Below are positions 37,308-45,839 of a stretch of 64,000 nt of DNA, piece by piece. The translations under genes and the position numbers were made by a program. The stretch's first letter is position 1, and each line of letters opens with the position of its first letter. Location: NCBI GenBank assembly GCA_963668695.2, contig CAXXLQ010000004.1:3776001-3840000 (forward strand), given 5' to 3'. Below the pieces are notes generated by a model. It had not been told where the DNA came from. It saw only the letters and a program-made list of their open reading frames with translations, and ran no database searches. The stretch comes from Vicinamibacteria bacterium (lineage in GTDB: Bacteria > Acidobacteriota > Vicinamibacteria > Marinacidobacterales > Marinacidobacteraceae).

Positions 37308-38810
37308 TTACTCCTCGCTCCCGCTCGGGGCGGAGCGGCCCGCGGCCGAACGTTCGGGCTCGTCGTCTTCGGTCTCGGCTTCGTCCTCCGCGTCCGGGCG
37401 GTGAATCACTCCGTCCACAAACACCGTTTCGACCCTCGCCCCGTCCTCGAAAATGTCCCCGTCCGCGACTAGCAGGTTGGCGATCCGCCCTGTCTGGAGC
37501 GTCCCAACCCGGTCCGCCACCCCGAAGATCTCCGCCGGGGCCAGAGTGAGCGCGGTCAGCGCCGCCTCCCGGCCGAGGCCGCGCTCGACGGCCTTCCGGA
37601 CCGCCGCGATATCGCCGCCGGAACTCCCGGCGGATGCACCGCGCTCGCGCGGCCCTCCGCCCGCTTCCGGGCCCTCCCCCAGGTAGAAGGCGAAACGGAC
37701 GCCGGCCGCGGCGAGCGCTGCGGGGCCGGCTGGCGCCTGGTCGCGGAGGCGAAGGGTGCGCAGCGGAATCTCCGCTTCGGGGTCTGCCTGCGGATCGGCC
37801 TTCGGCCAATTCAGATCCACCAGGATGGGCACGCCGTGCTCCTTCAGGAACTGCGCGGATTCCCCTGCCTCGTGGCCCCCGTAGAGGACCGGGCGAATAC
37901 CGAACTCTTCCGCGAGCCCCACCATCCGGCGCACTTCCTTGTCGAGGCTCGCCGGCAGCAGCACCGGCTGGTCACCGGAAGCCGCCGCGGCGAGCGGGGC
38001 GAGGGTCCGGTCGTAACGCGGCCGCACGAGGCCCGCCGGATCCTCTTCGTACATGCGCCAAACCTCGCCGTAGTGCGAAGCGTCGAGGAAGAGCTGCCGC
38101 AGGTAGGCGATCACCCCCATCAGGGAACCGGGGAAGGAGCGGAAACCGCGCGTCCCGAGCCGGACCACCACCGCCACGTCCGGAGCGACCACCAGATCGC
38201 GTGAGTCGACTCCTTCGGGGCCGGCCAGGTTCAGCAAGGCTGCCCGGCCCGAGACGATCCCGTCCGGCGGCGCCGAGACCGCCGAGGTAAACCCGGTGCT
38301 CCGGCGCGCCGCGATCCGTTCGTCGCTCGCCCGCAGGTCGTCGGCGGCGAGTCGCCAGGAGAAGGTGTCGGGCCGGTCCTCGGGCCCCCGCGAAGGAGGC
38401 GGCGGCGATGGCGCGCCCGCGGGTGGCGCGCCCGCGCCTGCGGCGCGCGGCCCCCGGGCCGGACCCGCCGTCGAATCCCCGCCGAGGCCGAGATCGCTGA
38501 GCGCAGTGATGAAACCCGGATAGACGTGCTTCCCGGCCGCATCCATTCCGGCAGCCCCGGCCGGGACCTCGCCGCCCGCCTCGACCGAAACGATCAGCCC
38601 GTCCCGGATTACCACGGTGGCTCCCTCCAGGACGGTCCCGTCGCCGACGTGGACCATGCCCCCGGTGATAGCCCAGGCCCGCGGGCCCCGGTCGGCCACC
38701 TCCCGGGAGGAGAGCTGGGCGGCCGCGGTCGCCGGCCCTGCCGCGAAGAAGAGCACCGCCAGCGGTGCAAGCAGGCGGGAGGCGCGCCGCCGGAGGTTTC
38801 GTCTCGCCAT
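37308..38810 (-). CDS. Amidohydrolase-family protein lacking the HxH metal ligands
   Basis: AAGKHVYPGFITALSDLG, FPGSLMG, GTLQTGRIANL, VFVDG; signal peptide. Confidence 0.8.
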   Translation of the reverse strand: MARRNLRRRASRLLAPLAVLFFAAGPATAAAQLSSREVADRGPRAWAITGGMVHVGDGTVLEGATVVIRDGLIVSVEAGGEVPAGAAGMDAAGKHVYPGFITALSDLGLGGDSTAGPARGPRAAGAGAPPAGAPSPPPPSRGPEDRPDTFSWRLAADDLRASDERIAARRSTGFTSAVSAPPDGIVSGRAALLNLAGPEGVDSRDLVVAPDVAVVVRLGTRGFRSFPGSLMGVIAYLRQLFLDASHYGEVWRMYEEDPAGLVRPRYDRTLAPLAAAASGDQPVLLPASLDKEVRRMVGLAEEFGIRPVLYGGHEAGESAQFLKEHGVPILVDLNWPKADPQADPEAEIPLRTLRLRDQAPAGPAALAAAGVRFAFYLGEGPEAGGGPRERGASAGSSGGDIAAVRKAVERGLGREAALTALTLAPAEIFGVADRVGTLQTGRIANLLVADGDIFEDGARVETVFVDGVIHRPDAEDEAETEDDEPERSAAGRSAPSGSEE

Positions 38811-38843
38811 GGCGGGCGAGTCTGTCCGAGCGGCGGGTAGCGG

Positions 38844-39458
38844 TCAACCGGGGTGGGCCCCTTGCCGCACCGAACTCGGCAGACTGGGGCACGAAGCCGC
38901 CCTTTCTTTTCCAATCAGGGCCACGACTTCAGAAAGCCGCTCCAAGGGAACGCCCATCCGAGCGCGCTGCAACGCGGCCACGATGGCGTCAACCTGACCG
39001 GCTTGACCCAGCGCGGTCCTAACGGCGGGATGAAGCAGCAGATCCACGGTAGAAACGACCGCAGTACCCGGGAAACGCTCTGCGCAGATCCTCCGCGCCT
39101 TCTTCTCGTCCATCATGGCTGCGCGACCGTACGCCGCGGCATACGCGACGGTCGCCGCCTCCCCGTCGCCGAGGGTGTCCTGTGCACGCCCTTCGGCCAG
39201 AGATATCTGGATTGTGGCGCCCTTGCCGATCTCCACTACCCGGCACGCTCCCGTGCAAACGAGCGCCTCAAGACCTGTGATATCTCGGTGTCCCCGGTTT
39301 CGTCCGGCCTGTAGTTCGAACCGCACCGACTCGGTCACAACGGGCGGCGAGGGGAAGAGTCGGAAGATCTCCTCGGCTCGACCCGTCGCGTTCAGGTTGA
39401 TGATCGCACTGGTATCCGCGACGATCCTTCGCCACGACTCAGGCAGGGAGTGCAACAC
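38844..39458 (-). CDS. PIN-domain protein (DUF3368-like)
   Basis: IVADTSAIIN, VVTESVRFEL, LGDGEAAT and MDEKKARR give the acidic PIN tetrad. GTG at 39458 overlaps the end of the upstream gene. Confidence 0.75.
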   Translation of the reverse strand: MLHSLPESWRRIVADTSAIINLNATGRAEEIFRLFPSPPVVTESVRFELQAGRNRGHRDITGLEALVCTGACRVVEIGKGATIQISLAEGRAQDTLGDGEAATVAYAAAYGRAAMMDEKKARRICAERFPGTAVVSTVDLLLHPAVRTALGQAGQVDAIVAALQRARMGVPLERLSEVVALIGKERAASCPSLPSSVRQGAHPG

Positions 39459-40623
39459 GCTCCGCAGCTTCGGCTTTCTCCTCCTCGGCGCCTTCCACAA
39501 GCTCGCGGACGGCTAACCGATCGAGCGCGAGCAGATCGGCGAGCTGGCCCTCGCTGTACAGATCGCGTTTCCACGCCTCTCTGACGAGGAGGCCGACCCG
39601 CGTCGGAACAATGCCCCCGCCGGAATCGGGAGTGCGCCCCTCGTCCGGCGGATGTCCGATCACGTCTTCGAACTGAGCATCTGTGATCCCGCCGTTGTCC
39701 TGAAACCAATCCCACGTCCCCTTCCTGACGACCCGCAGCTCCTCGAGGCGGCGCACCATCGCCTCGCGGGACACCGCGAACGAGTGCGCCAGCAGAATCA
39801 CATGGCGCCGCGTCAGATGGGACTGCCCGGCCGTCAGTTCACCAAACCGTTGGCGGACGGCCCGGCCAGGGGTCAGGAACGACCGCGCGAAAGCGGCCGC
39901 GTACTGTTCTTCGCGCGACCGCGAAATGTCCTGTTCCACCAGAAGTTCCGCTTCCTCCCGTGTCGTGATGAAGTGTCCGAGCTCGTGCGCGCCGGTCTGG
40001 GCAATACGGCCCCTTGGATGGTTTGCATTGAGCAGCACACAGGCGCCGGCGGCTTCGGTGTAAGCGAACAACCCGGAAATCGTGCTCACCAGCGGTCGCA
40101 AATAGACTCGCATTCCGACCTGCAACTCCAGGAACGTCACCATATCCAGAACCGGACCCGCCCCTAGCCCGAACCATGACCGCAGATCTTGGGCGTCCTC
40201 TTCCGCCTGCGCCGCGACATCGCCCGGAAGAATCTGCTTCTCCCGCGGATAGCGCTGCCTGCGCTGAATTCCGAGAACATTCTCCAGTTCCACTTCCGCA
40301 CTGACGAGCCGGCTTAGCAACTGCGCGGCGTCCTCCCTGGCCTCTTCGGAACTCTTCGGGAGCTTGCGGAATCGGGGCGCGAGGTCCAGGTGGACTGCCT
40401 CCCGCCGCAGGATCGCGTTTACGGAGACTCCGCACAGGTGTGCAAGCCTCTGGATCTCATCGCTCCGAATGCGACGTTTCCCCTGTTCGATAGCTACCAG
40501 CGTGGTTCGCGCGACCCGAATCCTCTCGGCGGCGTCGCTCTGGCGCAAACCACGCGCTTCCCGGATCGTTCGGAGTCGCCTGCCGATTTCCTGGTCCGAC
40601 AGTATCGGCGAGCCAATAGACAT
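39439..40623 (-). CDS. XRE-HTH plus ImmA/IrrE (M78) Zn metallopeptidase
   Basis: IGRRLRTIREARGLRQSDAA...IEQGKRR HTH; ISG...NANHP...AHELGH, E-x-x-A-x-x-FA-x-x-FL-x-P, FAVS-x-x-A-x-x-RRL. ATG at 40623 in a TGATG overlap. Confidence 0.92.
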   Translation of the reverse strand: MSIGSPILSDQEIGRRLRTIREARGLRQSDAAERIRVARTTLVAIEQGKRRIRSDEIQRLAHLCGVSVNAILRREAVHLDLAPRFRKLPKSSEEAREDAAQLLSRLVSAEVELENVLGIQRRQRYPREKQILPGDVAAQAEEDAQDLRSWFGLGAGPVLDMVTFLELQVGMRVYLRPLVSTISGLFAYTEAAGACVLLNANHPRGRIAQTGAHELGHFITTREEAELLVEQDISRSREEQYAAAFARSFLTPGRAVRQRFGELTAGQSHLTRRHVILLAHSFAVSREAMVRRLEELRVVRKGTWDWFQDNGGITDAQFEDVIGHPPDEGRTPDSGGGIVPTRVGLLVREAWKRDLYSEGQLADLLALDRLAVRELVEGAEEEKAEAAERVALPA

Positions 40624-41978
40624 CAGTTCAAAGCTCCCCACTCTCGGATGAATGAGCGGCTGCCCAGCGACGCCAGGTAGTTCACCCACTCCTCTCGATG
40701 CTTCTCGAACATCTCACGAATACGCTTCTCTACTTCCTCTACCTCCAGTTCCAAAACAGGAGCGAGGCTTGCGGCATGAGCCCCAATCGTCTCGGTTTCC
40801 TCCGCGATCTCCGCCATTCGCCGCATATGCAATGTCCCCGCAATTGCGTACTCTCGATACCGTTCGTTGAGCTTCGTAAATCCGGGATCCACCGCCTCCT
40901 CTAGCGACTCCGCCGACATGTTCACGCAAACGTACGTTCCTCCCGGCTCATCGAGACCGGCCGCATGAACGCTGAGGCGTCTCAACATACATGCCGCGCA
41001 CACACCGCAGTGCCTCCACGAACCGGCGATGGAACTCCACCGACCGTCGCGCCAGCAGGACTTGGCGTCCTTCCATGCCTCAGTTTCCGCGAGGCGCGCG
41101 TACTCTGAGAGCGTCTCTCCCTTCGTAGCCCACAGACGAGGAAACCTGTATCGGACATCCGATCCCAGCAAGGCCTTCAGGAACGACTCCATCCGCCGCG
41201 TGAAGAGCGGGTGGCTCCGATAATCCTGATATGAATGCCCCACGGTTGCCAGTACAGGTCCGAGCACACCCTGTCCGCTTTCCGGACAGATTACGCGTGG
41301 CGAGTTTGTCAGATAGGCCGCAAGCCCAGAGATCAAAGCAAACTTGAACCCTCTACTCCGTCCGCTCGTTTCTCTGCGAAGCTTGTTAGCCGAAAGCGAG
41401 TAGGGAACCTTAATGAAAGGCGTCTTTTCCGAGTATTTGAAATGCGACCCTCGCTCAACCCGAACGAGAACCAGTTGTTCACCTAACCGATTCCTTTCGA
41501 TCCCGGACACGGCCAGGGAATCCAAGCCAGCACTGTATGGCAGACAGGCTCCCCTCGGTACTGAGAACTCTAGGTATCCACGTCTTGGCTCGGTCTGCTC
41601 TTCGCTCCTGGCGCAGAATGAGAACTCCCAAACGTCCCCCGTAAGGAACCCGAGTGCAGAACAGAGTGAACGGACTACGTCTGGAGCCTCCCAGCGCGCC
41701 GGATCGTGTACAGGAACGTGAACGCACAGGTGACGCGCCCAGCCAAGCGACGGGCGGCGACCGACAGAATCCGCGTATTCGACGGCGGCGCAAACTGCCA
41801 TCGCGTCATAAATCACGGCTTCCCACCTTGCCAGCGCGAAACGTCGCAGCGCCTCGATCGAAAACTTGAAGTCCTTTCGGTGCTGGAAGGCGATCCAGCC
41901 GCGCGGGGCTCGTCCGTCCTTCTCGAGAACTGCAACCCTAGTAAGCGGCAGCCGACCCGCTTTTCGCTTACCGCTCAC
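40623..41978 (-). CDS. QatC-like QueC-family (7-cyano-7-deazaguanine synthase-like) protein
   Basis: N-terminal extension AD...GWAR...LGFLTGDVWEF; PP-loop YSAGLDS; RSRGF, PESG, RSHP, TKGE; Zn site SC...HCGVCAACMLRR. GTG at 41978 in a GTGA overlap. Confidence 0.85.
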   Translation of the reverse strand: MSGKRKAGRLPLTRVAVLEKDGRAPRGWIAFQHRKDFKFSIEALRRFALARWEAVIYDAMAVCAAVEYADSVGRRPSLGWARHLCVHVPVHDPARWEAPDVVRSLCSALGFLTGDVWEFSFCARSEEQTEPRRGYLEFSVPRGACLPYSAGLDSLAVSGIERNRLGEQLVLVRVERGSHFKYSEKTPFIKVPYSLSANKLRRETSGRSRGFKFALISGLAAYLTNSPRVICPESGQGVLGPVLATVGHSYQDYRSHPLFTRRMESFLKALLGSDVRYRFPRLWATKGETLSEYARLAETEAWKDAKSCWRDGRWSSIAGSWRHCGVCAACMLRRLSVHAAGLDEPGGTYVCVNMSAESLEEAVDPGFTKLNERYREYAIAGTLHMRRMAEIAEETETIGAHAASLAPVLELEVEEVEKRIREMFEKHREEWVNYLASLGSRSFIREWGALN

Positions 41979-42499
41979 AACGGAGGTCCTTGCTCCAACC
42001 CCTTCCGCTGCGGCGGCCGGGATGGGTTTAGTGCCCCAGCGCCACCCCGGACTAGGCGCTTCGCAAGCGCAGAGCAATCGTACGCGCGGTGGATTTCACC
42101 TAAACGCCCAAGCGCACGGCCTGCTCTCACATCGTTCCGGTGTCGGAGGCAATGCTCTTCCATGCTCCACATGCGTCGGCGCAGGAAGTCGGCCAGAGCA
42201 GCTGCCACAGCCCGTTCACGCGTGGCCAGACTGGGGGGAGCGCCGTTCTGAAGTCGCTGAATGTGTTCGATCATGATGTTTCCGAGAGCGCTTGGGCCGC
42301 ACCCGCCGTCCACGTCAACGTCAGGTTGAACGAGCCAAGGGCGGAAGAGCGCCTTCGGAAGTTGGCTGCAATCCGTGGTCAGGGCGTAGTCCAGCGCCTC
42401 AACGTTCTCTACCAGAGGACGGGCGGCATTCTCAGCGCGCCTCAGGATTTCGCGCCACAGCTTGGACAGAGGCAGGCTACTGTGGGGGCCGTCACTCAT
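41975..42499 (-). CDS. Hypothetical protein (MSDGPH N-terminus), first gene of the QueC operon
   Basis: 174-aa ORF whose stop overlaps the QueC start; no recognisable domain. Confidence 0.7.
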   Translation of the reverse strand: MSDGPHSSLPLSKLWREILRRAENAARPLVENVEALDYALTTDCSQLPKALFRPWLVQPDVDVDGGCGPSALGNIMIEHIQRLQNGAPPSLATRERAVAAALADFLRRRMWSMEEHCLRHRNDVRAGRALGRLGEIHRAYDCSALAKRLVRGGAGALNPSRPPQRKGLEQGPPL

Positions 42500-42503
42500 G
42501 ATA

Positions 42504-42532
42504 TGTCAGCATATCACATATCGTCTCTGACA
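42504..42532. promoter_or_regulatory. Putative promoter/operator of the QueC operon
   Basis: AT-rich patch with TGTCAG-N17-CTGACA; the minus strand reads TGA-TATGCT (extended -10-like) 8 nt before the ATG. Confidence 0.45.
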
Positions 42533-42771
42533 ATGTCGAATATGCCTTGGAAGCAGAGGATTGACTCCAGAGGCCGTTCAAGACATGCCCATCGGGACCC
42601 TGCAGCGAACCTCAGGAAGGGAGCCTGATGGAATGGCCAACCGAGTTCGGGGCAATGACACTGTCTGTTCCGCCGCCCTCCGGGCGGCGGTCCCGGCCGT
42701 CTCCGCCACCAACTCGCCCACAGCTCGGTCCTTGGCCCTCCCCTCCCCACGCGTAAGATTCCGGCCGCCTC

Positions 42772-44301
42772 GTGCCTCGTTTCTATCTGACCACCGCCAT
42801 CGACTACGTCAACTCGCCGCCGCACCTCGGCACGGCCTACGAGAAGATCACCGCCGACGTGATCGCGCGCTTCAAGCGGAGCGCGGGGTACGACACCCAC
42901 TTCCTGATGGGGGCCGACGAGCACTCCCTCAACGTGCGCCGGAAGGCTGAAGAACAGGGCCTCGATCCGCTGGACTACTGCGCCAAGATGGAGGACACCT
43001 TCCGCGCGGTCTGGGCGAAGCTCGACGTCTCCTACGACGAGTTCATCCGCACCACCGAGAAGCGCCACCACCTGGGGGTCCAGAAGCTGCTCGAGGCGAT
43101 TCGCGCGCGGGGCGGCATCTACGAGGGAACGTACGAGGGCTGGTACTGCGTCTCCTGCGAGGCCTTCAAACAGGAGAAGGATCTTGAAGACGGCACCTGC
43201 CCCCTCCACCGGGCAAAGCCGGACTGGATCTCCGAGAAGAACCACTTCTTCCGCCTCTCGGCGTACCGCGACCGGCTGCTCGAGCTCTACCGGGACCAGC
43301 CGAGCTTCATCGAGCCCGAGACCCGGCGGAACGAGCTGACGAACGTCCTCGAAGCGGGGCTCCTCGATCTTTCGGTCAGCCGGCCGAGCACCGGCTGGGG
43401 GATCCCGGTGCCTTTCGACGACGCCAGCGTGGTGTACGTCTGGTTCGACGCGCTCATGAACTATCTCTCGGCAACCGGTTACGGGACCGACGAGGAAGGC
43501 TGGGAGGAGCGCTGGCCCGCCGACCTCCACATCGTGGGCAAGGACATCACCCGCTTCCACGCCGTGATCTGGCCGGCCATGCTGATGGCGGCCGGGCTTC
43601 CCATCCCCCGGCAGGTCTTCGGGCATGGCTTCGTGAACTTCCAGGGAGAGCGGATGAGCAAGTCGCTCGGAACGGCAGTGGACCCGCTCGAAGCGAGCGA
43701 CCACTTCGGCCCCGACCCGCTCAGACTCTTCCTGGTCCGCGAAGTCCAGTACGGACAGGACGGTGACTTCTCCTGGGATCGTTTCGAGGCGCGTTACGAC
43801 TCGGATCTCGCCAACGCGCTCGGGAACCTGGTCAGCCGCATCACCTCGATGGCCGCCCGCTATCGCGATGGCCGGCTGGCCGCTTCGGCCCGCTCGGCTC
43901 TTCCCGAAATCTCGACCCGGGCGGTCGCCGACTACCGCGAGGCGATGGAGGGACTTCGTCTTCACGACGGGGCGGCCGCCGCCTTCCGGATCGTGGGGGC
44001 GGTCAACGAATTCCTGACCTTGCGCGCTCCCTGGAAGCTCGCCAAGGATCCGGACGCCGGAGAGGCGCTCGACGAAGCTCTCTACGAAGCCGCGGAGGCA
44101 ACCCGGATCGCCGCCGTCCTTCTCCATCCGGTCATGCCGAAGTCCACCGCTCGCATTCTTGAACGCTTGGGCGGCGCGTCCGCCGATCCGATCCGCTTCG
44201 ACGAGCACGCCGTCTTTCAGGGAGCCCGGGTCCTCGCCACGCAGGCGGGGGCACCCCTCTGGCCGCGGCTCTCCACCCGGCGATCAGGAAACCGGGGGTA
44301 A
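42772..44301 (+). CDS. metG: Methionine--tRNA ligase (short form, no C-terminal OB domain)
   Basis: FYLTTAIDYVN...HLGT, GADEH, YEGWYC, YVWFDAL-x-NY, GKDI-x-RFH, RMSKSLG, LANALGNL. Confidence 0.97.
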   Translation: MPRFYLTTAIDYVNSPPHLGTAYEKITADVIARFKRSAGYDTHFLMGADEHSLNVRRKAEEQGLDPLDYCAKMEDTFRAVWAKLDVSYDEFIRTTEKRHHLGVQKLLEAIRARGGIYEGTYEGWYCVSCEAFKQEKDLEDGTCPLHRAKPDWISEKNHFFRLSAYRDRLLELYRDQPSFIEPETRRNELTNVLEAGLLDLSVSRPSTGWGIPVPFDDASVVYVWFDALMNYLSATGYGTDEEGWEERWPADLHIVGKDITRFHAVIWPAMLMAAGLPIPRQVFGHGFVNFQGERMSKSLGTAVDPLEASDHFGPDPLRLFLVREVQYGQDGDFSWDRFEARYDSDLANALGNLVSRITSMAARYRDGRLAASARSALPEISTRAVADYREAMEGLRLHDGAAAAFRIVGAVNEFLTLRAPWKLAKDPDAGEALDEALYEAAEATRIAAVLLHPVMPKSTARILERLGGASADPIRFDEHAVFQGARVLATQAGAPLWPRLSTRRSGNRG

Positions 44302-44537
44302 CAGCCTGTGGTGAAACCCACGCGGCCCAGTTCTCCCGGTGGGGGCTCGAGCGGCGATCCATCCCGCCTGAACCGCCCCCCCACCGGGAGAACTGGCGCT
44401 TTGCGGCGCTCGACGTTGCGTTTCGGTCGAAATACACTCGGGCCAGTTCCTCCCTCACGCGCCTTGTCAGGCGGACCCCCACCGGGAGAACTGGGCCTCA
44501 CCGCTCTCGGCGCTCACCCGGGTTCCACCACAGGCTG
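44302..44537. mobile_element. MITE (subfamily A, inverted relative to the 6683 copy)
   Basis: TIR CAGCCTGTGGTGAAACC / GGTTCCACCACAGGCTG; GTAA duplicated at 44298-44301 (metG stop) and 44538-44541. Confidence 0.88.
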
Positions 44538-44573
44538 GTAAGCGGGCAGGCCACGGCTCGCGGCGCCTCGGGA

Positions 44574-45839
44574 GTGGCGATGACCTCCAGCGCCGCCAAT
44601 CCCTTCTCGCGGAACTGGTTGATGGGGTTCCGGGCGGACCTGATCTGGATCATCCTCTCGGCCGGCATCGGTTGGGCCTACCTGGCGCTCATCCTCGGGG
44701 TGGGCGCCGGGCTGGACAACCCGCTCCGGGACGCCTTCGCCACCCTGCGGGTCGGGGACTTCGCCCTCCCGGTGAGCCTGGGACTGGTAGTGGTCACGAG
44801 TTGGGCGGTGCTGCTCGACGCGCCGCACCTGTTCGCCACCCTGGCCCGCACGGTGCTGGATCCCGAGGAATGGCGCCTTCGTGGCGGGGTGCTGCTGGCT
44901 TCGTTCGGCTTCTTCCTGCTTGGCCCGGCCCTCATCCTGGCCCCCCGGCTGCTGGCTTCCGCCGGCGTCCTCCCGTCCGGCTGGCAAACCGCCGGAAGTG
45001 TCGTCTTCCTGGTCTTCTTCCGCCTGTGGGCGTACTACCACGTGGTTCGCCAGCACTGGGGGTTCTTGCGGCTCTACGCCCGCCGGAATCCGGCGGCGGA
45101 GGACGAGTTCGAGTTCCGTGCGGATCGGATCGTCTTCCCGATCGTCTTCTACCTGCCGATCGGGTGGTTCCTGACGGCTTCCTGGTACGCGGAGAGCGGG
45201 CTGCCGGAACTGGGGTTCGCCACGGAGGTGGGCGGCAGCACTCTCGGGTCCTGGCTCCACCTCCCGATCGGGTCGCTCTGGCTCCTGACCGTGATCGGCT
45301 ACGCCGCCTTCCAGTGGCGCCGCTACCTGCGGGGCAAGCCAAGGAATCTCCCCAAGCTGCTCCTGCTCGCCGCCACCGTGCCGCTCCACGCCGCGGCGTT
45401 TTCAAACCCGCTTCTCGTCCTCTTCGTGGTGCCGCTGGTCACCGCCGGCCACAACCTCCAGTACCACCGGTTCGTCTGGGACTATGCCAAGCGGCGCTAC
45501 CGCGCGGGACGGAGCGCCGCTGCCTTCTCGTTCCGTAGTCCGGCGCTCTACTTCGCGCTCGGGCTGGTGTTCACCTTCCTCGCTTACCGGGGACCCCTGG
45601 TCCACTCGATGAGCGGGATGCTCTCCGGGCTGCTCAACGAGGTGCTGCTGCCCCTGGCAGGTCTGGTGGCCGGGGCTCCGGGTGACGGAGGGGGCGCCTT
45701 GGGAGCCGAGGTGGTAGCGGCTTCACTCCTCGGCTGGGCAATGCAGCACTACTACCTCGACGCCCGCATTTGGCGGGTCTCGAAGGACGAACGTCTGCGG
45801 AAGGTGCTCGATTCGCCCGTCTCTGCGGCCCATTCCTGA
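44574..45839 (+). CDS. Polytopic membrane protein with four His motifs
   Basis: Many TM segments; DAPH, YHVVRQHWG, HNLQYH, HYYLDARIW. Confidence 0.75.
   Translation: MAMTSSAANPFSRNWLMGFRADLIWIILSAGIGWAYLALILGVGAGLDNPLRDAFATLRVGDFALPVSLGLVVVTSWAVLLDAPHLFATLARTVLDPEEWRLRGGVLLASFGFFLLGPALILAPRLLASAGVLPSGWQTAGSVVFLVFFRLWAYYHVVRQHWGFLRLYARRNPAAEDEFEFRADRIVFPIVFYLPIGWFLTASWYAESGLPELGFATEVGGSTLGSWLHLPIGSLWLLTVIGYAAFQWRRYLRGKPRNLPKLLLLAATVPLHAAAFSNPLLVLFVVPLVTAGHNLQYHRFVWDYAKRRYRAGRSAAAFSFRSPALYFALGLVFTFLAYRGPLVHSMSGMLSGLLNEVLLPLAGLVAGAPGDGGGALGAEVVAASLLGWAMQHYYLDARIWRVSKDERLRKVLDSPVSAAHS

What the first reader, a model, noticed from the sequence alone, without database searches (positions are those of the whole stretch)
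38844..42499. Candidate undescribed defence system: unknown ORF + QatC-like QueC + XRE/ImmA peptidase + PIN nuclease
Seen: four same-strand genes joined by stop/start overlaps (GTGA at 41975-41978, TGATG at 40621-40625, about 20-bp overlap at 39439-39458). They are visibly more AT-rich than the flanks and sit between metG and an amidohydrolase operon. The QueC protein is about 450 aa, roughly twice a housekeeping QueC, with the extra N-terminal domain (GWAR...FLTGD-x-W), PP-loop SAGLDS and C...CxxCxxC Zn site. Known: such enlarged QueC enzymes occur in anti-phage QatABCD and type IV CBASS, where they attach a deazaguanine to a partner protein's N-terminus. HTH-M78 peptidases act as antitoxins or sensors in RosmerTA-type and IrrE/CapP systems. 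Here there is no QatA ATPase, TatD or CD-NTase; a peptidase/PIN pair occupies their place. Inference: a distinct system in which nucleobase modification and proteolysis gate a PIN RNase effector. I cannot tell from sequence alone whether this architecture is already catalogued.
Basis: partly seen in the sequence, partly recalled or inferred. Interest (0 to 1): 0.9.

Follow-up and report, generated by a model that had tools for sequence, protein, structure and literature searches.

The report
Four-gene Qat-like peptidase–PIN defence cassette
This is a compact, mobile four-gene unit found in many bacterial phyla that joins the protein-modifying core of a known anti-phage system to a protease-controlled RNA/DNA-cutting toxin, a combination that I could not find described anywhere.

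Summary
Four intact minus-strand genes (window 42499-38844) overlap at each junction. They form a 3.9-kb low-GC insert between an amidohydrolase gene and metG. A second copy of this region in the same assembly lacks the insert.

The genes are:
- a 174-aa helical protein of no known family, with a near-invariant N-terminus (MSDGPH..LP....W);
- a 451-aa QatC-like QueC-family enzyme;
- an XRE-HTH/M78 peptidase (RmrA-like);
- a PIN nuclease.

All four genes occur in the same order in 80 of 80 related loci examined (343 were detected among 185,579 species genomes). These span Alphaproteobacteria, Gemmatimonadota, Acidobacteriota, Nitrospinota, Chloroflexota and others, plus 25 plasmids. They usually lie among defence or mobile-element genes and carry a conserved palindromic operator over the promoter.

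A controlled complex prediction places the small protein's tail in the enzyme's QatC-specific groove, as QatB sits in QatC. The small protein shows no detectable homology to QatB. The enzyme keeps the canonical YPDxR base-recognition motif that QatC has lost.

Best reading: a new Qat-family variant in which a QatBC-like core is coupled to a Rosmer-like peptidase/PIN toxin-antitoxin pair. The chemistry and the trigger are inferred, not shown. I found no description of this architecture in print.

The parts
38854..42743 (-). Whole inserted unit: the four genes plus their promoter region, 3,890 bp.
   Evidence: The other copy of this region in the same assembly (G000 C4:42772-47488, 97-98% identical flanks) has 88 bp here instead. 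GC is 0.57-0.64 against 0.67-0.77 in the flanks.
42500..42743 (-). Promoter/operator region. It holds palindrome cores GACAnTGTC at 42529-42537 and 42657-42665, and a further half-site CTGACAT at 42509-42503 just before the ATG.
   Evidence: TGACAnTGTC(A), overlapping a TTGACA -35 box, lies 46-51 nt before the ORF1 start in most loci. It is present in 71 of 74 loci with 130 nt or more upstream, and 64 of 74 also have the second TGACA half-site. Binding by the XRE domain is inferred.
41975..42499 (-). ORF1: a 174-aa all-helical partner protein (QatB analogue). It has an N-terminal MSDGPHSSLPLSKLW tail, an EEH motif and a C-terminal GLExGP motif.
   Evidence: [quoted passage not shown] Synonymous codons vary freely in the motif. 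No Pfam, PADLOC, NCBIfam or PDB sequence match. AF2 mean pLDDT is 86. Predicted to bind the enzyme: ipSAE 0.88 against 0.00 for the best control.
40623..41978 (-). QatC-like QueC-family PP-loop enzyme, 451 aa. PP-loop S149-x-G151-x-D153-S154, Zn site C308/C324/C327/C330, Y250-Q-D252-Y-R254.
   Evidence: PADLOC QatC 2.9e-28. NCBIfam QatC 104 bits, below the 280 cut-off. The family profile matches PDB QatC 9vlk_A at 2.8e-24 and 9zee_B at 4e-22. hhalign to canonical QueC aligns YxDYR with YPDCR, probability 96.5%.
39439..40623 (-). XRE-HTH + M78 (ImmA/IrrE-type) zinc peptidase, 394 aa, with H213-E-L-G-H217. Putative autorepressor and antitoxin.
   Evidence: Pfam HTH_31 7.8e-13 and Peptidase_M78 8e-12. 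PADLOC RmrA 9e-24 and capP 1.4e-13. It is the most conserved of the four proteins, with mean column identity 69% and an invariant HExxH.
38844..39458 (-). PIN-domain nuclease, 204 aa, with an extra C-terminal helical part. Putative toxin/effector.
   Evidence: Invariant D15, E48, D98, E100 and D117. Weak Pfam PIN hits in 10 of 35 members, best 1.3e-4. AF2 mean pLDDT 95. The Foldseek top rows are nearly all VapC/PIN chains (prob 1.00, target-normalised TM up to 0.69, best E 3.8e-3). PADLOC PDC-S70 7e-9.

Best explanation
**What it is.** A self-contained, horizontally mobile, autoregulated four-gene immune (abortive-infection type) cassette of the Qat family.

**Proposed mechanism.**
1. ORF1 and the QatC-like enzyme form a complex equivalent to the QatB-QatC core. 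ORF1's invariant N-terminal tail lies in the enzyme's QatC-specific groove, next to the active site.
2. The enzyme, using ATP at its PP-loop, activates a carboxylate and joins it to ORF1. The carboxylate is most likely 7-carboxy-7-deazaguanine, since the canonical YPDxR recognition motif is kept.
3. The XRE-M78 protein represses the operon through the TGACAnTGTCA operator and holds the PIN nuclease in check, as an RmrA-type antitoxin does.
4. On infection, a change in the state of the ORF1-enzyme complex is passed to the peptidase. Its cleavage activity removes the repression and neutralisation, freeing PIN to degrade nucleic acid and stop phage production.

**Shown here.**
- The gene set and its strict linkage.
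- The homologies and intact catalytic motifs.
- The operator.
- The mobility.
- Model support for an ORF1-enzyme complex.

**Inferred.**
- The modification and its chemistry.
- HTH binding to the operator.
- Antitoxin function of the peptidase.
- The link between the two halves.
- The PIN target.
- The phage phenotype.
For: **One unit.**
- All four genes are in one order in 80 of 80 loci.
- Stop/start overlaps are conserved.
- There is a single conserved promoter/operator, in 71 of 74 loci.
- In 401 sampled Alphaproteobacteria, the 6 genomes with a strong enzyme hit are the same 6 with a strong PIN hit on the same contig. The spacing was checked in G442 (about 1.16 kb). A 7th PIN hit lies at a contig end.
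- The window's insert is exactly the four genes plus promoter.

**Qat-like core.**
- Enzyme homology to QatC.
- It shares the QatC cluster motifs listed in PMC13329287 (section read): D-x4-R...WxR, GDxWxxxF, RxRxxxF, ExG, HP, P-x4-TK and the CGxCxxC..RR Zn site, all visible.
- Complex prediction gave a score of 0.88 in 3 of 3 runs, with the best of 3 controls at 0.00. That mark was reached by 58 of 80 solved complexes and 2 of 110 mismatched pairs. The runs share at least 78% of contacts, and partner pLDDT is at least 73.
- In that model, ORF1 residues 5-13 touch enzyme residues 77-81, 110-116 and 244-251. ORF1 helices 68-119 touch the C-terminal extension (372-404). This is the same layout described for QatBC (PMC13279940, Results read).
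- The N-terminal motif is under protein-level selection: all four Pro and all four Gly codons are used.

**Base-recognition motif.** The YxDYR motif aligns with the canonical YPDCR.

**Toxin-antitoxin half.**
- RmrA, capP and capH profile hits.
- The PIN fold and acidic residues.
- ImmA-type antitoxins paired with PIN toxins are reported in NetFlax (PMC10440598, passages read).

**Defence context.**
- 21 of 33 loci have a restriction, Abi, HEPN, GmrSD, AAA_21 or toxin-antitoxin type gene among the two nearest ORFs on each side.
- 10 of 33 have an integrase, resolvase, transposase, relaxase, TraG or antirestriction gene.
- 26 of 33 have either (no background control was run).
- 25 plasmids carry the cassette, 14 of them conjugative. 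Neighbours there include Eco57I-type restriction-modification, DUF262 and a Lit family protein.
Against: - No experiment supports any step.
- ORF1 has no detectable homology to QatB: PADLOC gives nothing at E up to 10, the PDB profile search gives no QatB at E up to 10, and hhalign against 3 QatB-type sequences gives probability 0.8%.
- ORF1's N-terminus is MSDGPH, not the MGTS/MGGS glycine motif needed in Qat and type IV CBASS.
- In a divergent version of the cassette, residue 2 is Q or H (4 of 4 proteins). The initiator Met would probably stay, so a free small N-terminal residue is not universal.
- Residues 2-4 of ORF1 are not among the confidently placed contacts.
- QatBC structures exist, so the complex model may lean on memory for the enzyme side.
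- The window's genome (91.7% complete) has no QueC and no QueE by two models. Mesorhizobium sp. SB112 also has neither. A host-made CDG substrate is therefore not always at hand.
- QatC activity itself has not been reconstituted in vitro (PMC13279940).
- The defence-island evidence has no matched background.
Confidence: 0.45

Rival explanations
1. Same four-gene unit, wired differently. The XRE-M78 protein is only a transcriptional switch: a fused CapH/CapP or ImmR/ImmA-type repressor-protease that derepresses the operon on a stress signal. PIN is an accessory effector that takes the place of QatD and is controlled directly by (modified) ORF1, not by the peptidase.
For: The palindromic operator lies over the -35 box. 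There are capH (3.6e-7) and capP (1.4e-13) profile hits. QatBC alone suffices for defence against some phages, and QatD is an accessory nuclease (PMC13279940; PMC13434339). Passages of PMC10440598 describe ImmA cleaving the repressor ImmR.
Against: The best profile hits are to RmrA antitoxins (9e-24) and to the spr1629 repressor/antitoxin family. The peptidase and PIN genes overlap by 20-26 nt in 69 of 71 loci, typical of toxin-antitoxin coupling. In three loci with a truncated or frameshifted ORF1 or enzyme gene (L016, L060, L075), the peptidase and PIN genes are still intact. That fits an addictive pair, but three cases are few.
Confidence: 0.2
2. A four-component addiction (toxin-antitoxin) module whose main role is to stabilise plasmids, ICEs and genomic islands rather than to defend against phage.
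For: It is carried on 25 plasmids, 20 of them conjugative or mobilizable. Integrases, resolvases or relaxases lie nearby in 10 of 33 loci. It includes an autoregulated promoter and a PIN toxin.
Against: A simple stabilising pair needs neither a 451-aa ATP-dependent enzyme nor its dedicated partner, yet both are kept in 80 of 80 loci. The closest relatives of both halves (Qat, Rosmer) are experimentally anti-phage (PMC13279940, PMC10440598). In the window the cassette sits in the chromosome between housekeeping genes, with no mobility gene.
Confidence: 0.15
3. Two independent systems, a minimal QatBC-like pair and a Rosmer-like pair, that merely travel together.
For: Each half resembles a system that works alone (QatBC: PMC13279940; RosmerTA: PMC10440598).
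Against: The enzyme stop and peptidase start overlap by 4 nt in 54 of 71 loci. Only one conserved promoter was seen. Association is reciprocal in the unbiased sample: 6 of 6, and 6 of 7 with the exception at a contig end. The architecture persists in a version only 27-36% identical.
Confidence: 0.05
4. A metabolic QueC paralogue acting in 7-deazaguanine (queuosine or DNA-modification) synthesis.
For: RefSeq names it 7-cyano-7-deazaguanine synthase. The YPDxR motif is kept. In Thalassospira australica the cassette lies 1 kb from queC-queD-queE.
Against: It scores 16 bits on TIGR00364, against a cut-off of 150. It is twice the canonical length. No QueD, QueE, TGT or DpdA gene lies in 79 of 80 loci (tblastn with the Thalassospira QueC/D/E). 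Four of five hosts checked carry a separate canonical QueC. E. coli QatC fails to complement a queC deletion (PMC13329287).
Confidence: 0.02

Closest known systems
QatABCD anti-phage system, specifically its QatB-QatC core (PDB 9vlk, 9zee; PMC13279940, PMC13376578, PMC13639016)
   Same: An enlarged QueC-family enzyme with N- and C-terminal extensions and the QatC cluster motifs. The gene just upstream encodes a small helical protein with a strongly conserved N-terminal tail. That protein is predicted to insert its tail by the active site and to pack its helices on the enzyme's C-terminal extension. Both systems have four genes and lie in defence islands.
   Different: - The partner is not detectably homologous to QatB and starts MSDGPH, not MGTS.
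- The enzyme keeps the canonical YPDxR motif where QatC has T-x-T.
- The enzyme scores far below the NCBIfam QatC cut-off and forms its own clade.
- There is no QatA (KAP NTPase) and no QatD (TatD). An XRE-M78 peptidase and a PIN nuclease follow instead.
- A published survey of about 630 Qat clusters lists no such variant (PMC13434339, passages).
RosmerTA (RmrT/RmrA) and NetFlax ImmA-antitoxin/PIN-toxin pairs (PMC10440598)
   Same: An HTH + M78/ImmA peptidase protein overlaps a toxin gene. PIN-like toxins are among the reported partners. It also has a defence context.
   Different: Here the pair never stands alone in the clade examined. It is fused into an operon behind a QatBC-like pair and shares that pair's promoter. 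The PIN protein matched no RmrT model at E up to 10 (only PDC-S70).
Type IV CBASS Cap9/CD-NTase deazaguanylation (10.1101/2025.04.06.647259)
   Same: A QueC-family enzyme that keeps the Y-x-D base-recognition motif and acts on the N-terminal tail of the partner protein encoded beside it. The CD-NTase motif M(G/S)G(G/S)GG tolerates Ser at position 2.
   Different: Cap9 is minimal (about 185 aa), whereas this enzyme has the QatC-type extensions. There is no CD-NTase, Cap10 (TGT) or cyclic-nucleotide effector.
CapH/CapP, ImmR/ImmA and IrrE/DdrO repressor-protease switches
   Same: An XRE-type HTH plus an M78 metallopeptidase, with an operator over the promoter of the controlled operon.
   Different: The two functions are fused in one 394-aa protein encoded inside the operon, with a conserved extra C-terminal region. 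No separate repressor is present. What it cleaves is unknown. (CapH/CapP and IrrE/DdrO biology is recalled; only the profile hits come.)
QatB-S24 peptidase fusion with QatC, noted earlier in this scan on another genome (e1-1229350)
   Same: A QatBC-type core coupled to a protease domain.
   Different: There the protease is a LexA-type S24 domain fused to the QatB-like protein, with two genes and no PIN. I did not check that note.

Membership tests
QatABCD | QatC: a QueC-family enzyme with QatC-specific N- and C-terminal extensions, scoring above the curated family cut-off. | tested here: not met
   Clear homology (PADLOC 2.9e-28; PDB QatC 2.8e-24) and the shared cluster motifs. But NCBIfam NF041925 gives 104 bits against a cut-off of 280, and the family forms a separate clade (quick tree, SH-aLRT 96).
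QatABCD | QatB partner with a conserved MGTS N-terminus. | tested here: not met
   Two bona fide loci fetched here do start MGTS (L089, L090). ORF1 starts MSDGPH in the window and M(S/T)DGP in 80 of 80 loci. No homology to QatB was found.
QatABCD | The partner forms a complex with the enzyme, with its tail at the active site. | tested here: inconclusive
   A model only: ipSAE 0.88 against a best control of 0.00 (the mark was reached by 58 of 80 solved and 2 of 110 mismatched pairs). Residues 5-13 sit in the groove; residues 2-4 are not confidently placed.
QatABCD | QatC invariant T278/T280 in place of the Y/D base-recognition residues. | tested here: not met
   The family has Y250-x-D252-Y-R254, aligned to the canonical YPDCR by hhalign (probability 96.5%). 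The T-x-T feature is taken from PMC13279940.
QatABCD | QatA (KAP NTPase) and QatD (TatD nuclease) in the operon. | tested here: not met
   Genes 3 and 4 are an HTH/M78 peptidase and a PIN nuclease. No KAP_NTPase or TatD Pfam hit appeared among 130 flanking ORFs of 33 loci.
RosmerTA | RmrA: an HTH + M78/ImmA peptidase antitoxin. | tested here: met
   17 RmrA profiles hit, best 9e-24 over residues 37-321 of the 416-aa form scanned. Pfam HTH_31 and Peptidase_M78 hit. HExxH is invariant. Antitoxin activity itself was not tested.
RosmerTA | A two-gene toxin/antitoxin unit with an RmrT toxin. | tested here: not met
   The architecture is always four genes (80 of 80). PIN matches no RmrT model at E up to 10.
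Type IV CBASS | CD-NTase plus Cap9 plus Cap10 (TGT-like). | tested here: not met
   None of the four proteins hits a CD-NTase or TGT family.
Canonical QueC (TIGR00364 / PF06508) | Score above the curated cut-off, about 220-aa length, SGGxDS loop, YPDC motif and Zn cysteines. | tested here: not met
   TIGR00364 gives 16.1 bits against 150.3, and Pfam gives 18.9 against 22. The protein is 451 aa and its loop is SxGxDS. The YxDYR motif and the Cys cluster are kept.
PIN-domain nucleases (VapC-like) | PIN fold with the conserved acidic residues. | tested here: met
   The Foldseek top rows are nearly all PIN/VapC chains (prob 1.00, target-normalised TM 0.55-0.69, best E 3.8e-3; none at E <= 0.001). 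D15, E48, D98, E100 and D117 are invariant. Pfam PIN hits are below cut-off. Nuclease activity was not tested.

The most novel reading that the evidence does not exclude
The cassette is a metabolite-triggered guard against phages that make 7-deazaguanine DNA.

- The enzyme keeps the canonical CDG-recognition motif, yet it is maintained in hosts that lack QueC and QueE.
- In such hosts its substrate would appear only when an infecting phage brings its own QueD/QueE pathway.
- Ligation of that phage-made base to ORF1 would then flip the peptidase switch and release PIN.

A related bold option: the invariant Asp3-Gly4 of ORF1, not the alpha-amine, is the site acted on. That would be a third, chemically new QueC-family protein modification.
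Probability: 0.07. Interest if true: 0.9.

Novelty: new variant of a known kind. Interest (0 to 1): 0.72.

Why it matters
How QatBC stops phage is an open question. The reaction has not been reconstituted, and neither the role nor the downstream target of modified QatB is known (PMC13279940).

This cassette is a natural re-wiring of that core. It has a partner protein with a different tail. Its enzyme still carries the canonical base-recognition motif, so it may be easier to assay with CDG. Its output is explicit and easy to score: a peptidase-controlled PIN toxin.

It would link protein nucleobase conjugation to toxin-antitoxin control. It also extends the Qat family to at least 343 species genomes and 25 plasmids that current annotation labels as 'hypothetical protein / 7-cyano-7-deazaguanine synthase / XRE regulator / hypothetical protein'. 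Copies exist in cultured, tractable bacteria.

Tried and rejected
**ORF1 fold and family**
- Foldseek against the PDB found nothing at E <= 0.001.
- VIA-align wide gave a best Z of 6.2, which is background for helical proteins. QatB may not be in those libraries.
- A PDB sequence profile search found no QatB at E up to 10.
- The ESM Atlas gave only sub-threshold viral hypothetical clusters.
- Pfam on 34 members gave only scattered single chance hits.
- hhalign against a thin three-sequence QatB alignment gave probability 0.8%.

**Other searches that found nothing**
- Earlier scan notes by place and by sequence: nothing.
- Rfam on 38700-44700: no match at E <= 0.1.
- Phage records: no tblastn match to the enzyme.
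- The search for related loci with the divergent enzyme (L097) found only its own MAG.

**Read laying**
- Only contigs were available, so no transcript ends or expression levels can be read.
- Short RNA-library contigs from 3 runs of 2 studies lie on parts of the enzyme gene and on the peptidase/PIN junction at 95-99% identity. DNA carry-over cannot be excluded, so I count this only as a weak hint of expression.
- Parts without cover mean nothing.

**Insert ends.** I saw no direct or inverted repeats by eye at the insert ends.

**C-terminal GLDEGP motif of ORF1.** I considered that it is conserved only as the ribosome-binding site of the next gene. That explains part of it: the second Gly uses GGG or GGA in 56 of 61 loci. 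The first Gly uses all four codons, so protein-level selection acts too.

**Literature**
- Searches found no paper describing this architecture.
- The passages or sections I read of PMC13279940, PMC13376578, PMC13639016, PMC13329287, PMC13434339 and 10.1101/2025.04.06.647259 do not describe it either.
- Supplementary tables were closed. Table S2 of PMC13329287 (neighbourhood Pfam counts for the QatC cluster, of which only about 34% sit beside qatA/qatD) may already list M78 or HTH neighbours.

Full report
**1. The observation**

Four ORFs lie head to tail on the minus strand:
- ORF1, 42499-41975 (174 aa);
- a QueC-like protein, 41978-40623 (451 aa from GTG);
- an HTH/peptidase protein, 40623-39439 (394 aa);
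- a PIN-like protein, 39458-38844 (204 aa from GTG).

GC drops to 0.57-0.64 inside the cassette, against 0.67-0.77 outside. The flanks are metG (593.8 bits) and two amidohydrolase-family genes.

**2. What each gene is**

*Gene 2 (enzyme)*
- It hits PADLOC QatC (2.9e-28) and NCBIfam QatC (104 bits, far below the 280 cut-off). It hits canonical QueC only at 16-19 bits.
- A 16-sequence family profile finds the solved QatC chains 9vlk_A (2.8e-24) and 9zee_B (4e-22), and nothing else in the PDB.
- The family alignment has:
  - an invariant PP-loop, S149-x-G151-x-D153-S154;
  - the Zn cysteines C308, C324, C327 and C330;
  - the motifs that PMC13329287 (section read) lists as defining the QatC cluster: D..R..WxR, GDxWxxxF, RxRxxxF, ExG, HP, P-x4-TK.
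- Unlike QatC, it keeps Y250-x-D252-Y-R254. hhalign places this on the canonical YPDCR motif of four housekeeping QueC proteins (probability 96.5%, E 7.5e-10). In QatC these base-recognition residues are two invariant threonines (PMC13279940).

*Gene 3 (peptidase)*
- It has an XRE-type HTH and a Peptidase_M78 domain.
- It hits 17 RmrA profiles (best 9e-24), capP and capH, and the spr1629 repressor/antitoxin family.
- HExxH is invariant. It is the most conserved of the four proteins (69% mean column identity).

*Gene 4 (PIN)*
- It has no Pfam hit above cut-off.
- 10 of 35 family members give weak PIN hits.
- D15, E48, D98, E100 and D117 are invariant.
- The AF2 model (mean pLDDT 95) is matched nearly only by VapC/PIN chains.

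*Gene 1 (ORF1)* matches no family in any library.

**3. A single, widespread unit**

*Linkage*
- A scan of one genome per species (185,579 species) found 343 loci encoding a relative of the enzyme; the best 80 were kept.
- tblastn found the peptidase in 79 of 80 and PIN in 77 of 80. The misses are loci where the contig ends.
- ORF1 was found in 74 of 80 by tblastn. The other six were recovered by their N-terminal motif or by direct reading, giving 80 of 80.
- Junction overlaps are conserved.

*Reciprocal association*
- In an evenly drawn sample of 401 alphaproteobacterial genomes, the six with a strong enzyme hit are the same six with a strong PIN hit, on the same contig. I checked the spacing in G442: it is about 1.16 kb, the length of the peptidase gene.
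- A seventh PIN hit sits at a contig start.
- Weaker hits of either protein do not co-occur.

*A more distant version.* A version 27% (enzyme), 36% (peptidase) and 28% (PIN) identical, with the same four genes, exists in a Thiotrichaceae MAG.

*Taxonomic spread.* Carriers include Alphaproteobacteria, Longimicrobiales/Gemmatimonadota, Acidobacteriota, Nitrospinota, Chloroflexota, Geomonas and Janthinobacterium. The enzyme tree does not follow taxonomy.

**4. Mobility**

- The last ~158 kb of the window's contig repeats its first ~148 kb at 97-99.5% identity. This looks like two haplotypes joined in a circular assembly.
- One copy carries the cassette. The other has 88 bp in its place. The insert is window 38854-42743, that is, the four genes plus 244 bp of promoter region. 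The host flank supplies the last codons of PIN.
- In the same genus this intergenic spot is empty in G315 and G318. In G310, G313 and G317 it holds other inserts of 7.7-9.8 kb.
- 25 plasmids carry the cassette: 14 conjugative, 6 mobilizable, 5 non-mobilizable. RefSeq labels the genes as hypothetical protein, 7-cyano-7-deazaguanine synthase, HTH/XRE regulator and hypothetical protein.
- No phage record matches.

*Neighbourhoods.* I scanned 33 loci (130 ORFs, the two nearest on each side). These were the first 33 of 62 loci with long enough flanks; four more were dropped for a size limit. From:
- 21 have restriction, AbiE, HEPN, GmrSD, AAA_21, HipA, Fic or RES neighbours;
- 10 have integrase, resolvase, transposase, relaxase, TraG or antirestriction genes;
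- 26 have either.

I ran no background control for these counts.

**5. Regulation**

- A palindrome, TGACAnTGTC(A), overlaps a TTGACA -35 box and lies mostly 46-51 nt before the ORF1 start. It is present in 71 of 74 loci.
- A further TGACA half-site lies next to the ribosome-binding site in 65 of 74 loci.
- The pattern is almost confined to these positions: 162 pattern matches (each full palindrome matches in both orientations) in 980 kb of loci.
- The window has cores at 42529 and 42657 and a half-site just before the ATG. It has no obvious ribosome-binding site.
- The encoded XRE domain is the obvious candidate binder. This is an inference.

**6. ORF1 as the enzyme's partner**

*Conservation*
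- ORF1 proteins are only 20-35% identical to the window's copy.
- Even so, all of them start M(S/T)DGP(H/W/Y/V)(R/K)SLP....W(K/R).
- The codons of this motif vary freely: all four Pro and all four Gly codons are used. Selection therefore acts on the peptide.
- This parallels the MGTS...P..W tail of QatB (PMC13279940). I saw that tail in two bona fide qatABCD loci (L089, L090).

*Structure and complex prediction*
- The AF2 model is all-helical (mean pLDDT 86).
- The controlled complex prediction supports binding:
  - score 0.88 in three runs, best of three controls 0.00;
  - the mark was reached by 58 of 80 solved complexes and 2 of 110 mismatched pairs;
  - at least 78% of contacts are shared between runs;
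  - partner pLDDT is at least 73.
- In the model, ORF1 residues 5-13 lie against enzyme residues 77-81 (the WxR motif), 110-116 (FLTGDxW) and 244-251 (the loop leading into YxD). ORF1 helices pack on the C-terminal extension. This is the arrangement reported for QatBC.

*Caveats*
- A like complex has been solved, so part of the score may come from the model's memory.
- ORF1 has no detectable homology to QatB. I therefore call it an analogue, not a member.

**7. Mechanism and its weak points**

*Best reading (0.45).* A QatBC-like modification and sensing core is coupled to a Rosmer-like repressor/antitoxin-peptidase and a PIN effector.

*Support for the toxin-antitoxin half*
- NetFlax reports ImmA-type antitoxins with PIN toxins (PMC10440598).
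- In three loci with a truncated or frameshifted ORF1 or enzyme gene (L016, L060, L075), the peptidase and PIN genes remain intact.

*Against simple N-terminal deazaguanylation*
- Position 2 is Ser or Thr here. This is allowed in the CBASS motif M(G/S)G(G/S)GG (10.1101/2025.04.06.647259).
- It is Q or H in the divergent subfamily (4 of 4 proteins), where Asp3-Gly4, His6, Pro and Trp15 are what stay conserved.
- The window's genome (91.7% complete) has Tgt and a PTPS-family gene but no QueC and no QueE.
- Mesorhizobium sp. SB112 also lacks both.
- Four of five other hosts have a canonical QueC. Four other Gemmatimonadota-type hosts have below-cut-off QueE-type matches (E 1e-17 to 1e-23).

So either the substrate is not always CDG, or it comes from outside the host. 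That is the basis of the bold reading that phage-made deazaguanine precursors are the trigger.

*Expression.* Evidence is weak: short contigs in three RNA libraries of two studies lie on the enzyme gene and on the peptidase/PIN junction.

**8. Comparison and novelty**

- The cassette works like Qat in its first half and like Rosmer in its second. It fails the membership tests of each: no QatA or QatD, no MGTS QatB, an enzyme below cut-off and without T-x-T, and not a two-gene toxin-antitoxin unit.
- A published census of about 630 Qat clusters lists only qatABCD and truncated forms (PMC13434339).
- The QueC-family network paper says only about 34% of its QatC cluster sits beside qatA/qatD, and does not describe the rest in the main text.
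- My six paper searches found no description.
This hints that protease coupling recurs.

I rate it a new variant of a known kind, of fairly high interest, because it offers a tractable read-out for the unresolved QatBC mechanism.

Noticed in passing
window 44299-44540: A 242-bp MITE-like element just after metG. It has 21-nt terminal inverted repeats (90% complementary) and perfect internal 19-22-nt inverted repeats. It is present in dozens of copies at 70-92% identity in this genome and its genus relatives. No Rfam match.
   Followed up: partly
whole window (G000 C4:3776001-3840000): The last ~158 kb of the 3.91-Mb contig repeats its first ~148 kb at 97-99.5% identity. This is probably two strain haplotypes joined in a circular assembly, and it would explain the 9.3% contamination estimate. 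The window lies inside this duplicated part.
   Followed up: yes
window 38854-42743 and the same site in G310, G313, G315, G317, G318, G319: The amidohydrolase|metG intergenic spot is a variable insertion hotspot in this genus. It is empty in G315 and G318. It holds a 1.5-kb insert in G319 and 7.7-9.8-kb inserts in G310, G313 and G317. G317's insert includes a 70%-identical peptidase/PIN stretch. I did not annotate the other inserts.
   Followed up: partly
L050:9076-12157 (Thalassospira australica chromosome): The cassette lies about 1 kb upstream of, and in the same orientation as, the host queC-queD-queE operon, with a methyltransferase gene between them. This was the only one of the 80 loci with Que genes nearby, so it may be coincidence.
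   Followed up: partly
L098:4137-7053: A QatC-type protein of 712 aa (229 bits to NF041925) with about 300 extra C-terminal residues. The protein encoded just upstream (262 aa) starts MGHVRLGVLPRTKAWK, a tail that resembles both the QatB and ORF1 tails. There is no QatD-like gene right after it. This may be another Qat variant.
   Followed up: no
L097:4012-7649 (Thiotrichaceae MAG, GC 38%): A divergent version of the same four-gene cassette. Its ORF1-like protein starts M(Q/H)DGIHKNAPVPKxWK, and it has a related repeated operator (ACAATGTTAT) upstream.
   Followed up: partly
ORF1 C-terminus, window 41975-42010, and 61 of 74 related loci: A conserved C-terminal G-(L/I/V)-D-(E/D)-G-(P/V)-x-L motif echoes the N-terminal DGP. 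It is explained only partly by the ribosome-binding site of the next gene. Its role is unknown; it could be a peptidase site or a second docking tail.
   Followed up: partly
L002, L010, L011, L016, L019, L026, L029, L038: AbiEi/AbiEii genes are among the two nearest neighbours in 8 of 33 loci, mostly directly upstream and divergent. This is a recurrent pairing that may reflect a shared island in related rhizobia.
   Followed up: no
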